From: Octopus vulgaris
Lineage: Eukaryota
Direction: 5' to 3'
NCBI GenBank assembly: GCA_951406725.2
Contig: OX597834.1
Coordinates: 6,882,001 to 6,946,000 of the forward strand
Length of the DNA stretch: 64,000 nt
Of the stretch, positions 1 to 38,469 are shown piece after piece. How positions within the stretch are numbered: the stretch's first letter is position 1; every line of letters begins with the position of its first letter. The position numbers were made by a program, and so were the translations under genes. The notes under the pieces are model-generated. The model saw nothing but the letters and a program-made list of their open reading frames with translations, searched no databases and was not told where the DNA came from.

Positions 1-122
1 AGCCAAAGAACCTTAGCTATTCCTTCTACTATAAGAAGAGACTCCTGGACAAAATCAAAATACTTGAAACAACCTATGCAGAGAGAGAGGAAAAATAGCG
101 AAAATCACTCTGTATTTAATTA

Positions 123-205
123 CCCATGGACGAGTTTTGGAATTAGATTGGCATAAAGAATGTAAAATTCATACTTTACCCAAACATTTTCCTCCTCAGC
201 ATGGG
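123..205 (-). ncRNA. Type I hammerhead ribozyme motif, G12->A mutated, in a (TA)n-abutting insert (1-213)
   Basis: Minus strand reads CCCATG-CTGAGGA-GGAA..TTCC-AAAAC-TC-GTC-CATGGG: 6-bp stem I, CUGANGA core, stem II, GUC triplet; GAAA box reads AAAA. Confidence 0.7.
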
Positions 206-230
206 ATTTCCTGATATATATATATATATA

Positions 231-508
231 TTAAATTAGAGATAAAACCACTATGAGGCAAATCAAACAGTGAAAATCATAAACCAATAAATAGAAATAA
301 AATTAATTAATTAATTTTTAGTTTTTATTAATTATTTTTTATTAATTAATTTTATTTCTATGTATTGGTTTATGATTTTCACTGTTTGATTTGCTAATAG
401 TGGTTTTATCTCTAATTTAATATATATATATTTATACTATAAAATTAGATTTAATCCTAAATCTAATTTTTCCCTGTAAGTTTGGATTTACTCCCAAATA
501 TTATTATT
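231..508 (+). mobile_element. Fold-back element in (TA)n (putative Penelope-like 3' end with inverted 5' copy)
   Basis: ~80-bp inverted arms 231-310/342-420, then a ~80-bp tail shared with 6148-6388 and 29075-29310; (TA)n on both sides. Confidence 0.7.
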
Positions 509-541
509 ATTATATATATATATATATATATATATATATAT

Positions 542-808
542 AGTGGCGGACTGGCCAGGTTGCCAGTTTGCCCTGCCCCATTAGAATCCATATAGGAGGG
601 CCCATGTTAGTATCTAAGAGGCCCATCTCCTGGAAGAATACATTAATTATTTCAGCCTGGCTGTGTTTGTAGTCAGTTGAAAAGAATACTTTTAACAAAA
701 ACAGAAAAGATTAAATGATAGCATTGTAGTTGCAGGTGGGCCCCCTTTTAGTTGTGGGTGGGCCCCCTTAGTCTCCTGGCAATCAAAATTTCCAGACCCT
801 GTCCACTA
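542..808. mobile_element. Non-autonomous DNA transposon (MITE), possibly Harbinger-like
   Basis: Starts AGTGGCGGACTGG, ends degenerate CCCTGTCCACTA; several internal GGGCCC motifs. Confidence 0.4.
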
Positions 809-874
809 GTGTGTGTGTATATATATATATATATGCACATATACATATATATACATATATATATATACACATGT

Positions 875-1202
875 GAAGTCGCATGGCTCAGTGGTTAGAG
901 TGTCAAGCTTACAATCGTGAGGTTGTGTGCTCGAATCCCGGACCGGGCTGCGTGTTGTGTTCTTGAGCAAGATACTTTATTTCAAGTTGCTCCAGTTCAC
1001 TCACCTGTAGAAATGAGTTGTGACATCACTGGTGCCAAGCTGTATATCGACCTTTGCGTTTCCCTTGGATAACACTGGTGGCATGGAGAAGGGAAACCGG
1101 TAGGCATGGGCAACTGCTGGTCTTCCATAAACAACCTTGCCCGGACTTGTGCCTGGGAAGGTAACTTTCTAGGTGCAATCCCATGTTGTGACCAAAGGGG
1201 GT
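875..1202 (+). mobile_element. tRNA-derived SINE, family C (CORE-like domain)
   Basis: A box TGGCTCAGTGG, B box GCTCGAATCC, then GTGTTCTTGAGCAAGATACTTT; related copies 12875-13180, 37247-37460, 43039-43490, 44040-44530 (split), 57590-57770(-), 10205-10438(-). Confidence 0.8.
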
Positions 1203-1352
1203 ATCAGAATATACATACACACCCACCGACACACACACACATATATATATATATATATATATACATATAAATATATACACACATATATATTTACATATAT
1301 ACCCTTATGGTATTTGCAAAGGGAGGTCATCCTTCCCTCATCAACCTAAGTG

Positions 1353-36159: not shown

Positions 36160-36383
36160 TGACGGGGTGCTGGAAGGTTCCCAGCTTTGGGTAAAAGGAA
36201 ATACAGCAGAATCAATTCTTTATGATTTTATTCAACATGTTCCCCTTTCAGATTGATTCACACACTTGTAGCAGTGGTCCTTCAGTTTTTCTAAGTTTTG
36301 TATAAAATAACTCGGACGGTTGGCCCCCCTACCAGGTCTTTTGTGATACCCTTAAAGCCTGAAACCTTTTAGCACTCCCTCAC
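36160..36383. mobile_element. Mariner-like MITE
   Basis: Ends GGGGTGCTGGAAGGTTCC / AAACCTTTTAGCACTCCCTC; another copy 38160-38355 in the opposite orientation. Confidence 0.7.
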
Positions 36384-36513
36384 GTGTGTGTGTGTGTGTG
36401 TGTGTGTGTGTGTGTGTGTGTGTGTGTGTGCGCATGTGTATGTGTATCTATCTTTTTATATAAATAAACACACACATATATATATATATATATATATATA
36501 TATATATATATAT

Positions 36514-36736
36514 AAGTATAAGGTCGTTAATTTAAAAATAAAATAACGATTTTATCAAGTGGTCAGCATGGAAAAAATAACCTTCAAATGTAATAATTAT
36601 TAAAATTATAAATTAGGGTATCTACGAGATACCACTATGCTGAAAATAGCAGCCATGATCTGATCATGGCTGCTATTTTCAGCTTGGTGGTTTTTCGTAG
36701 ATACCAAAATTTATAATTTATAATTTTGATAATCAT
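36514..36736 (-). mobile_element. Fold-back element in (TA)n with a 1-nt loop
   Basis: GCTGAAAATAGCAGCCATGATC-T-GATCATGGCTGCTATTTTCAGC centred on 36661; arms extend ~36602-36719; tail with CAAGTGGTCAGCATG. Confidence 0.8.
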
Positions 36737-36804
36737 ACATATATATATACATATATATAAATATAAATAAATATATATATATATATATATAAGATAAAAC
36801 TTAC

Positions 36805-36895
36805 TTGGTGATGGTGATGATGATGGTGGTGGTGGTGGTGGTGAAGATGATAACGATGACAGTTATAATGATGATGATGATGTTGTTGTCTTTGA
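36805..36895 (-). other. Exon-like segment with strong splice signals (His/Gln-rich frame), unverified
   Basis: Minus ttttttgttttttctAG|TCAAAG..CACCAA|GTAAGT, 91 nt. Confidence 0.2.
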
Positions 36896-37701
36896 CTAGA
36901 AAAAACAAAAAAAGTGCTGTCACATTCCAAGGAGGAAACAAATACTTTTTTTTAAATCTTAATTGATATATCTAATAATGATATTATTATTTCCCCTCGT
37001 CATTGATAACAAGAACCCATCTACTTGACAATTTGTTGATCCCTAGGGTGTAACATTCTTCAGGATTCAAAGCACTCAAGATCATCTCCAACCTCTTCAG
37101 AATTCATAAATTCTTCTCCCTCCAAACAACTCAAATAATATTTTAATGAACTGAAAAGATGATAACAAGATGATGGTGCAAGGTCAGGGGAGCAACGGCG
37201 AAGAGGCAACATTTCCATATTTAGTGCCATATTTAGTTCCTAAATGAAGGCACATGGCTCAGTGGTTAGAGTGTTGGTTCACAATCATGAGATAATGAGT
37301 TCGATTCTTGGACTAGGTTGTATGTTGTGTTCTTGAGCAAGATACTTTATTTCATGTTGCTCCCATTCAGTCAGCTGTAAAAATGTGTTGTGATGTCACT
37401 GGTGCCAAGCTGTATTGGCCTTTGCCCTTCCCATGGGTTACCATGGTAGCATGGAGAGGGGAGACTTATTCTTTGTAAACCTAGTACTTATTCTATTGTT
37501 CCCTTTTGCTCACCAACATCGGTTGTCAAGCAATGGTGGGGGAGAAAACACACAGAAACATATACATACATACATATATATCTCTCTTTCTCTTTCTCTC
37601 TCTCTCTCTCTCTCTCTCTCTCTATATATATATATATATATATATATATGAAAAAACAAGTCAAAATAGAAAATGCTAAAATAATTTTATAAAGAACATT
37701 T

Positions 37702-37739
37702 CAGTACCGGTTTCGGTCATTTTGAGACCTTTTCAACTG
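37702..37739 (-). ncRNA. Type I hammerhead with U3-A8 core variant, in an insert (37650-37920) within the microsatellite of a family A SINE
   Basis: Minus CAG-TTGAAAA-GGTC tcaaaat GACC-GAAAC-CG-GTA-CTG; palindromic ACCGGT stem III. Confidence 0.7.
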
Positions 37740-38469
37740 TAACGATTAAATAATTAAATTTAGAAAAATTAGAAGAAAAGTTTTTTTAAAAGAATATTTC
37801 TATAGTAGTGTTCAGATTTAAGTGGCATTCTGCCTTTCTCTGACTCCCTTGTTTGCACTTGTGTGTTCGAGGTAGTTGTGAGTTCTTGGTAGGGTAGTAG
37901 AGGGAAGGCTGGTGAGGAAATATATATATATATATACATATATATATGTATGACAGGTTTATTTCAGTTTCCGTCTACCAAATCCACTCACTAGCCTTTG
38001 ATCGGCCCAAGGCTATACTAGAAGATATTTGCCCAAGGGGCTTTGCAGTGGGACTGAACCTGAGAACCATGTGGTTGGTAATCAAGCTACTTACCACAGA
38101 GCCTCTCCAGCGCCAATAGCCACACCTGCGCTTATGTATATATACATATATATATATATATATGGGGTGTGCTGAAAAGTTCCTGCCTTTAAGGATATTG
38201 CGGAAAGCCTAGTTGGAGGTTCAACCTTCTGAATTCTTTTACAGGGCTTAGGAAAACTGAAGGACTGCTGCAATACGTGTGTTGAATAAAATCATGATTG
38301 ACCGAGCCTCCAGTATTTTCTTTTACTAAATGCCACAAACTTTTCAGTATCTCTTCATATATATATATATACATATATATATACACATATACACACACAC
38401 ACACGCACACACACACACACACACACACACACACACACACATAACCATAATGCTTCTGTGTATATCTCT

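What the first reader, a model, noticed from the sequence alone, without database searches (positions are those of the whole stretch)
1..37920. Candidate system: multi-family, (TA)n-targeting, hammerhead-bearing fold-back retroelements
Seen: about 17 inserts of 160-500 bp lie in or against (TA)n. Ten have type I hammerhead folds (123, 1353, 1855, 2180, 8681, 9114, 25920, 28417, 29104, 37702). Nine are hairpins, all but the 18328 copy with a one-sided tail (231, 6148, 8943, 10458, 13893, 18328, 28565, 29398, 36514). Shared sequence links the two classes (29075 with 231 and 6148; 1-213 with 10458; 8943 has both). Established: Penelope-like elements (GIY-YIG endonuclease plus RT) carry minimal hammerheads in their pseudo-LTRs and often leave inverted 5'-truncated copies. 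Inference: these are very short or non-autonomous insertions from many divergent Penelope-like lineages that target TA microsatellites. I cannot tell whether this has been described for this genome.
Basis: partly seen in the sequence, partly recalled or inferred. Interest (0 to 1): 0.88.

Follow-up and report, generated by a model that had tools for sequence, protein, structure and literature searches.

The report
Octopus Penelope retrotransposon ends and retrozymes
These 18 short inserts in TA repeats are truncated ends of Penelope-like retrotransposons and of small non-coding head-to-tail relatives that likely use the same enzymes, a known kind of mobile DNA that is unusually diverse and recently spread in this octopus genome.

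Summary
The window has 18 inserts from 13 families; 17 have their 3' end at a TA run. Five hammerheads pass a descriptor (1 hit in 30 shuffles); the other five claimed are damaged copies of family motifs. All nine hairpins are real.

Eight families lead upstream into Penelope-like (PLE) coding sequence elsewhere in the genome: B, E, J (Hydra-type); D, H, I, M (Neptune-type); K (third lineage). E, M and K have many 100%-identical copies. Five families (A, C, F, G, L) are ORF-less 350-570 nt head-to-tail monomers with one hammerhead each, i.e. retrozyme-like non-autonomous elements, and they show the same inversion-plus-tail signature.

Fold-back families have two fixed 3' ends about 40-140 nt apart. 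The likely mechanism is reverse transcription primed on both cut strands of (TA)n from two start sites.

PLE hammerheads, tails, inversions, TA targeting and an octopus Hydra element are published. I did not find in print this family diversity, the long tails, or retrozyme-type monomers with PLE insertion scars in octopus. Verdict: new members of a known kind.

The parts
1..213 (-). Family A (ORF-less ~565-nt monomer), 5'-truncated copy; continues ~180 bp left of the window to its tailed 3' end at a TA run; hammerhead ~123-206 with AAAA for GAAA
231..502 (+). Fold-back with tail, sister subfamily (~82%) of Hydra-type family B; no hammerhead retained
1290..1462 (-). Family C (ORF-less ~354-nt monomer), inverted pair; hammerhead ~1353-1400 with mutated cleavage triplet; right end in AT-rich, non-TA sequence
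1762..1975 (-). Family D, 3' end of a Neptune-type element (link through ~80% relatives); hammerhead with CUGUAGA core and a helix II mismatch
2089..2244 (-). Family D, second copy (95% to the first); hammerhead 2184-2211 passes the descriptor
6148..6385 (-). Fold-back with tail, B sister subfamily
6740..8817 (+). Family E, very young Hydra-type element: long low-complexity 3' UTR plus hammerhead 8687-8725, ends at (TA)63; left limit approximate
8945..9442 (+). Family F (ORF-less ~492-nt monomer), fold-back with ~92-nt tail; hammerhead 9121-9184
10455..10674 (+). Family A, short fold-back with tail
13893..14131 (-). Family G (ORF-less ~508-nt monomer), fold-back with ~108-nt tail
18329..18438 (.). 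Family G, tailless short hairpin
25879..26053 (+). Family H, 3' end related (72%) to the pLTR in front of an 803-aa RT frame and a GIY-YIG frame (L239); sits in the internal TA tract of a SINE-like repeat; family core CCGACGA
13445..13850 (+). Uninterrupted paralog of the repeat that is split at 25879 (empty-site control, not a PLE insert)
28304..28522 (+). Family I, 3' end of Neptune-type GIY-YIG elements (89% to L072); U3-A8 hammerhead 28421-28460
28568..28853 (-). Family J, Hydra-type 3' end, fold-back with ~138-nt tail; canonical hammerhead lies upstream in longer copies
29075..29309 (+). Family B, 3' end (94.6%) of a Hydra-type element with an intact 841-aa ORF (L228); hammerhead core damaged in this copy
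29398..29620 (+). Family K, fold-back with tail; 3' end of a young RT+GIY-YIG element of a third PLE lineage; family hammerhead core CUGAUGC lies upstream
36512..36725 (-). Family L (ORF-less ~494-nt monomer), fold-back with ~88-nt tail
37650..37920 (-). Family M, 3' end of a very young Neptune-type element (4.4-kb tandem unit, ORF1 plus RT/EN); U3-A8 hammerhead 37705-37736

Best explanation
The inserts are 5'-truncated copies of Penelope-like retrotransposons from three lineages and of five ORF-less head-to-tail hammerhead monomers, lodged in (TA)n tracts, and they were likely written there by target-primed reverse transcription with the elements' RT/GIY-YIG protein. Shown: family membership, links to coding sequence for 8 of 13 families, monomer structure for 5, two fixed 3' ends per fold-back family, TA adjacency, and one filled/empty paralog pair. 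Inferred: the endonuclease cuts both strands of (TA)n; each cut end primes cDNA synthesis, usually one at the distal and one at the proximal start site (the sequence between them is the tail); both cDNAs stop early and are joined head to head, which gives a hairpin with a one-sided tail. Also inferred: the ORF-less monomers are transcribed as multimers or circles and borrow a PLE protein in trans. The hammerhead probably processes tandem transcripts and may not be needed for insertion.
For: L228: [185-bp inverted copy][1.8-kb pLTR with tail][841-aa ORF with DKT and CxCX5C][pLTR with tail](TA)n, with the window's 29075 insert 94.6% identical. L093: ORF1 plus a 781-aa RT/CX4CxxC/GIY-YIG frame. 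M, I, J, K directly downstream of endonuclease frames; an E copy directly upstream of a Hydra-type ORF start; D and H through relatives. Head-to-tail junctions at the same sequence in independent loci: A 6 loci, C 3 of the main subfamily, F 2 by motif plus L012, G 3, L 2. L046, a locus picked at round coordinates: 2 inverted + 5 direct 353-359-nt monomers between TA runs, sharing C's tail (28 of 30 nt). 3' ends at TA: B 40 of 51, F 13 of 16, G 26 of 34, J 30 of 42, L 15 of 30, D 13 of 13, H 13 of 14, I 5 of 5; E 11 of 12, M 14 of 14, K 25 of 27; background 748 of 20000. 45 of 58 fold-backs pair a long with a short end; the short arm reaches further 5' in 20, the long arm in 11, equal in 8 of 39 uncensored pairs. 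In vitro a lizard PLE cuts and extends both strands and starts at two sites that bound the tail (PMC11167929).
Against: No coding partner sharing sequence with A, C, F, G or L was found (tail comparison, only 2 coding-element tails beyond B, J, K), so trans-mobilisation rests on the shared insertion signature. The 45-of-58 count is inflated because several queries were themselves long+short hairpins; the window gives 7 of 9. C ends are mostly not at TA (8 of 39) and 4 C pairs are long+long. The tilt toward longer short arms also fits a single cDNA that folds back. Pfam found no RT or GIY-YIG in the two Hydra-type proteins; their assignment rests on motifs. No cleavage, expression or polymorphism data.
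Confidence: 0.88

Rival explanations
1. Same elements, different geometry: one cDNA snaps back on itself, copies back toward the 3' end, and is resolved by the endonuclease or by annealing at an internal TA-like site, which sets the short end.
For: Short ends fall at internal TA-like sequence in B, F, G, J, L; small junction overlaps are common; Craig 2021 attributes the tail to endonuclease resolution.
Against: A strict snap-back predicts that one arm type always reaches at least as far 5' as the other; both directions occur (11 vs 20 of 39). Single-arm copies end at either site. In vitro start sites match tail bounds.
Confidence: 0.3
2. The ORF-less families are not mobile on their own; they are pLTR pieces of unseen coding elements that were amplified locally as satellites by unequal exchange.
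For: No partner found means an unseen parent cannot be excluded; Li et al. 2026 propose local tandem amplification after a PLE lands; only the top 40 candidates per search were scored.
Against: The same tail-to-head junction recurs on different contigs, inside insertions that have their own inversion, tail and TA flanks (L012, L046, L402, L442), which points to a multimeric or circular RNA template.
Confidence: 0.12
3. The hairpins are MITE-like DNA transposon relics or microsatellite-driven inverted duplications, and the hammerheads are chance folds.
For: Short inverted repeats flanked by TA resemble Tc1/mariner MITEs (recalled).
Against: Hairpin centres vary between copies while 3' ends are fixed; arms are asymmetric; hammerheads exceed shuffles (17 vs 2 in 10 shuffles); families continue into RT/GIY-YIG frames.
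Confidence: 0.02

Closest known systems
Hydra-clade PLEs, including Hydra-1_Obim of Octopus bimaculoides (Craig et al. 2021, PMC8557442; passages, section 11, supplement tables S1/S2 seen)
   Same: Single ORF with DKT, CxCX5C linker, C-terminal endonuclease, canonical hammerhead near the 3' end, (TA)n preference, inverted 5' copy (families B, E, J).
   Different: Described as generally <3 kb, and PLE tails as 30-40 bp; here B has a 6.8-kb unit with a ~4-kb repetitive 3' UTR, E a >2-kb low-complexity UTR, tails of B and J are ~72 and ~138 nt, and many intact ~900-aa ORFs exist.
Neptune-clade PLEs (as characterised in Craig et al. 2021) with minimal and U3-A8 hammerheads (Cervera and de la Pena 2014, PMC4209133; part 1 of 4 seen)
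   Same: DKG, CX4CxxC linker, C-terminal GIY-YIG, upstream ORF1, pLTR, minimal hammerheads with an unpaired base before helix II, U3-A8 variant (I, M).
   Different: Family-level core changes: A6>U in D, U4>C in H; clade call made from motifs, no reference tree.
Animal non-LTR retrozymes (Cervera and de la Pena 2020, PMC7229834, passages seen; Li et al. 2026, bioRxiv 10.64898/2026.07.22.740005, parts 1-3 of 5 seen)
   Same: ORF-less tandem monomers of a few hundred nt, one type I hammerhead each, palindromic loop 3, proposed PLE dependence; known in mussel.
   Different: Here most copies are truncated sub-monomers with PLE-type inversion, two fixed 3' ends and TA targets; circular RNA and cleavage not shown; the 2026 sample was 31 vertebrates, 3 insects and 1 coral.
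Non-autonomous Chlamys elements such as MRC1 (Craig et al. 2021)
   Same: Non-autonomous PLE derivatives with pLTRs and multicopy head-to-tail insertions.
   Different: Those share 3' sequence with coding partners and most Chlamys lack hammerheads; no partner found here.
Poseidon_Ac of Anolis (Frangieh et al. 2024, PMC11167929; parts 1-2 of 4 seen)
   Same: Two reverse-transcription start sites that bound the tail, AT-rich target, both strands cut and extended, hammerhead dispensable for insertion in vitro.
   Different: Different clade; a 30-40-bp tail is cited there, against mostly 60-140 nt here.

Membership tests
EN+ Penelope-like elements | RT plus GIY-YIG endonuclease in the parent element | tested here: met
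   Pfam RVT_1 and GIY-YIG in the 781-aa and 574-aa frames, and in separate frames of L239; window families I, M, D, H, K, B, J, E link to RT/EN frames. Not met for A, C, F, G, L, which are ORF-less.
EN+ Penelope-like elements | pLTR partial tandems, inverted 5'-truncated copy, one-sided tail | tested here: met
   L228, L093, L195, M tandems
EN+ Penelope-like elements | Type I hammerhead near the 3' end | tested here: met
   All 13 families carry a hammerhead-shaped motif; cores deviate in D, H, K
EN+ Penelope-like elements | RT phylogeny with reference PLEs and telomerases | not tested
   No reference alignment held; assignment by motifs and BLAST among own proteins
Hydra clade | DKT in place of DKG | tested here: met
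   B 841-aa and 899-aa proteins QSDKTRN; E frame PSDKTKN; region not held for J
Hydra clade | CxCX5C linker | tested here: met
   B CTCRDKSNC, J CACRDRTKC; absent from the 899-aa family; region not checked for E
Hydra clade | (TA)n insertion and canonical hammerhead | tested here: met
Neptune clade | DKG, CX2-5CxxC linker, C-terminal GIY-YIG, optional ORF1 | tested here: met
   781-aa and L239 frames; M endonuclease region 65% to the 781-aa protein
Neptune clade | Phylogenetic separation from Nematis | not tested
   Both clades share the linker. K's relative P0001 has DKS and only 25-28% identity to the Neptune-type proteins; 'Nematis-like' is a recalled lead only.
Non-LTR retrozymes | ORF-less tandem monomer with one type I hammerhead per unit | tested here: met
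   Periods: A 565, C 354, F ~492, G 508, L 494, L046 353-359, L190 565, L420 532
Non-LTR retrozymes | At least two consecutive complete hammerheads in a genomic array | tested here: inconclusive
   Met for related families at L046, L190, L420; window families were seen mostly as 1-1.5 units
Non-LTR retrozymes | Self-cleavage and circular RNA in vivo | not testable with these tools
   Only assembled contigs were offered

The most novel reading that the evidence does not exclude
Octopus hosts a radiation of retrozymes that are inserted by Penelope-type twin-start reverse transcription from circular or multimeric RNA. Their scars (inversion, long tail, TA target) would be direct genomic proof of how animal retrozymes move. 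Together with coding PLEs they would seed tens of thousands of near-perfect hairpins, while young, spreading families have let the hammerhead core drift (A9>C, A6>U, U4>C), implying that the motif is kept for structure or protein binding rather than cleavage.
Probability: 0.45. Interest if true: 0.62.

Novelty: new member of a known kind. Interest (0 to 1): 0.4.

Why it matters
PLE transposition and the role of the PLE hammerhead are open questions. This genome offers intact, very young elements of three lineages beside ORF-less retrozyme-like dependants, with thousands of insertions whose two fixed ends read out where reverse transcription starts. That makes the two-start model and PLE-driven retrozyme mobility testable with natural sequences. 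For annotation, these inserts are easy to misfile as MITEs, microsatellite or unknown repeat; the main text of a 2026 Octopus vulgaris repeat annotation lists 31 recently active PLE families but has no mention of ribozymes (its library and supplements not seen). That transcribed hairpins could feed octopus A-to-I editing is untested speculation.

Tried and rejected
Rfam scan: the 150 rows shown of 420 were microsatellite-driven miRNA matches below gathering scores; no hammerhead row was among those shown.

Distance from hammerhead to the next TA run: 7 of 17 downstream, 7 of 17 upstream, against 21% at random positions; too weak, replaced by the direct 3'-end test.

tblastn of six PLE frames against the window: no coding remnant.

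First guesses rejected: that family B folds back at a fixed centre (an effect of the query edge); that the Hydra-type EN in L343 or the Neptune-type hit in L346 belongs to K (unrelated neighbours); that the 899-, 778- and 833-aa Hydra-type families are parents of window inserts (no match).

Tail comparison found no coding partner for A, C, F, G, L.

Sequencing runs: no RNA holder listed; laying contigs on 9540-13600 was swamped by repeats and showed no empty site.

Three look-ups of earlier findings returned nothing.

Full-length M, E and K elements were not retrieved; their links rest on 3-kb loci.

Literature searches. None listed a paper on hammerheads or retrozymes in octopus beyond Craig 2021. 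The library lacks most subscription papers, and Repbase/Dfam were not available.
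Full report
Setting. The window is G000:C21:6882001-6946000 of a 2.8-Gb assembly. A protein labelled Octopus vulgaris is 97% identical to a frame linked to one of the families, so the host is very likely an octopus of that group. The first 38 kb are rich in TA tracts.

Checking the observation. 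Self-BLAST shows the claimed hairpins. A type I hammerhead descriptor, allowing U3-A8, A6>U and U4>C cores and an unpaired base before helix II, finds 5 motifs in the window against 1 in 30 shuffles. In 37 stretches of 10 kb taken at round coordinates it finds 17 motifs, at about 9 loci, against 2 in 10 shuffles. A crude extrapolation is of the order of 1e5 motifs in the genome. The five other claimed motifs are single damaged copies; other copies of their families keep the family motif. The 18 inserts fall into 13 families (A-M). None was detected in 38-64 kb, so the left part of the window is locally dense in them.

Links to coding elements. A Pfam GIY-YIG search gave 6136 candidates, many in 781-aa open frames. 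L093 is a full element: pLTR, ORF1, a 781-aa RT/CX4CxxC/GIY-YIG frame, pLTR with a U3-A8 hammerhead, then (TA)n. Insert I matches the 3' ends behind such frames, up to 89%. M copies are 100% identical in all 40 scored places, occur as 4.4-kb tandems, and follow an endonuclease frame 65% identical to the 781-aa protein. Relatives of D (about 80% identity) follow Neptune-type endonuclease frames in 6 of 19 other loci. A 72% relative of H is the pLTR in front of an 803-aa RT frame. A second protein type with DKT gave 6727 candidates and many ~900-aa frames. Walking upstream from B reached L228: inverted 185-bp copy, 1.8-kb pLTR with tail, 841-aa ORF with DKT and CxCX5C, a 3' UTR of about 4 kb, pLTR with tail, (TA)n. 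J follows a Hydra-type endonuclease in L249 and L254, and the same upstream DNA is shared by L253, L245 and L259. E copies are 99.5-100% identical in all 40 scored places; an inverted E copy in L368 runs into a Hydra-type ORF start; the window copy spans at least 6740-8817. K follows an RT/CX4CxxC/GIY-YIG frame of a third lineage, with 21 of 41 matches exact over 241 nt. D and H are the weaker links because they pass through relatives.

ORF-less families. Upstream of the hammerhead, A, C, F, G and L do not enter an ORF; they run into their own tail. The same junction recurs in independent loci. Periods are 565, 354, ~492, 508 and 494 nt. One of the round-coordinate loci, L046, is an array of two inverted and five direct 353-359-nt monomers between TA runs; it has a short end on the left, a tailed end on the right, and shares C's tail. 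Related tandems occur at L190, L185 and L420. These fit the definition of animal non-LTR retrozymes and also carry the PLE insertion signature. No coding partner was identified.

Target. 3' ends are followed by (TA)4 within 8 nt in B 40 of 51, F 13 of 16, G 26 of 34, J 30 of 42, L 15 of 30, A 7 of 10, D 13 of 13, H 13 of 14 and I 5 of 5 (main end classes only; smaller bins left out), against 748 of 20000 random positions. Some misses are head-to-tail junctions. C is the exception at 8 of 39; its flanks are AT-rich but rarely TA runs. That TA is the target and not only an added tail is supported by TA on the truncated 5' side of many copies and by paralogs. The SINE-like repeat at 13445-13850 is continuous, while its paralog at ~25690-26280 is split at the internal TA tract by insert H. 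Among held loci, 28 copies of this repeat are empty and one is split by a B copy.

Mechanism. Each fold-back family has two fixed 3' ends, separated by about 72 (B), 90 (F), 108 (G), 138 (J), 84-90 (L), 108 (A) and 36 (C) nt. Of 58 head-to-head pairs, 45 join a long and a short end, 4 two long ends, 1 two short ends and 8 have an odd end. This count is biased by the queries; the window itself gives 7 of 9. The arm that reaches further 5' is the short one in 20, the long one in 11 and neither in 8 of 39 uncensored pairs. Frangieh et al. showed that a PLE protein cuts and extends both strands at AT-rich DNA and starts at two sites that bound the tail. The simplest reading is twin priming, one start site per strand, with early termination and head-to-head joining (about 0.6). 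Snap-back with resolution at an internal TA-like site remains possible (about 0.3). Hammerhead cores deviate at family level: CUGAUGC in 23 of 27 K copies, U at position 6 in at least 16 of 19 D copies, CCGACGA in 7 of 10 H copies. K is young, which fits the in vitro result that cleavage is not needed for insertion. Activity was not measured.

Relation to what is known. Craig et al. 2021 describe partial tandems, inverted 5' copies, a 30-40-bp one-sided tail, (TA)n bias, the Hydra clade, non-autonomous head-to-tail Chlamys elements, and list Hydra-1_Obim from Octopus bimaculoides with a hammerhead. Cervera and de la Pena 2014 report minimal and U3-A8 hammerheads, including opposite-strand pairs 100-700 bp apart. 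Their 2020 paper defines non-LTR retrozymes, including in mussel. Li et al. 2026 tie retrozymes to PLE pLTRs by phylogeny in frogs (supplements closed). Bonar et al. 2026 count 31 recently active PLE families in O. vulgaris with no ribozyme mention in the main text (library not seen). In six searches I found no description of these families, of tails above 40 nt, or of octopus retrozymes; Repbase and Dfam could not be checked.

Verdict. A real and well-supported feature; new members of known kinds, with a few variant traits worth testing. Interest 0.4.

Noticed in passing
L046:2100-4760 (G000:C1:20000001+): Array of 2 inverted + 5 direct 353-359-nt hammerhead monomers between TA runs, sharing family C's tail; a good construct for cleavage and circle tests.
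   Followed up: partly
L195 (G000:C1:119516000-119525999) and one search hits: Large Hydra-type family with many intact 899-aa ORFs in ~3.6-kb tandems; has DKT but no CxCX5C linker; not represented in the window.
   Followed up: partly
L427, L354 (family K): Hammerhead-shaped motif with core CUGAUGC (A9>C) in 23 of 27 copies of a young family whose RT relative has DKS; clade unplaced.
   Followed up: partly
window 6740-8540: What looks like host microsatellite is part of family E's 3' UTR, so such elements may spread their own TA/TG tracts and with them new targets.
   Followed up: partly
L296, L297, L302, L318, L356, window 213/231, 8817/8945, 29309/29398: Different PLE families often sit directly against each other's ends or in the same TA tract (nesting).
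   Followed up: no
window 20549-20755 and 21237-21443: 207-bp inverted pair, 97% identical, ~480 bp apart, not related to the PLE families.
   Followed up: no
window 23117-24396; 32620-33593; 22266-22820; 59072-59875: (CAT)426 tract, a 25-bp minisatellite of ~38 copies, and tandem arrays of a 184-bp unit.
   Followed up: no
window ~48780-49500: Stretch that resembles a decayed Tc1/mariner transposase gene (recalled resemblance, not tested).
   Followed up: no
L080 (G000:C30:5221180-5221329): GIY-YIG match that looks like an exon of a host nuclease such as SLX1 rather than a PLE (recalled motif, not tested).
   Followed up: no
L131, L070, L126, L416 flanks: Further TA-flanked fold-back inserts of families not studied here, so the number of families is well above 13.
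   Followed up: no
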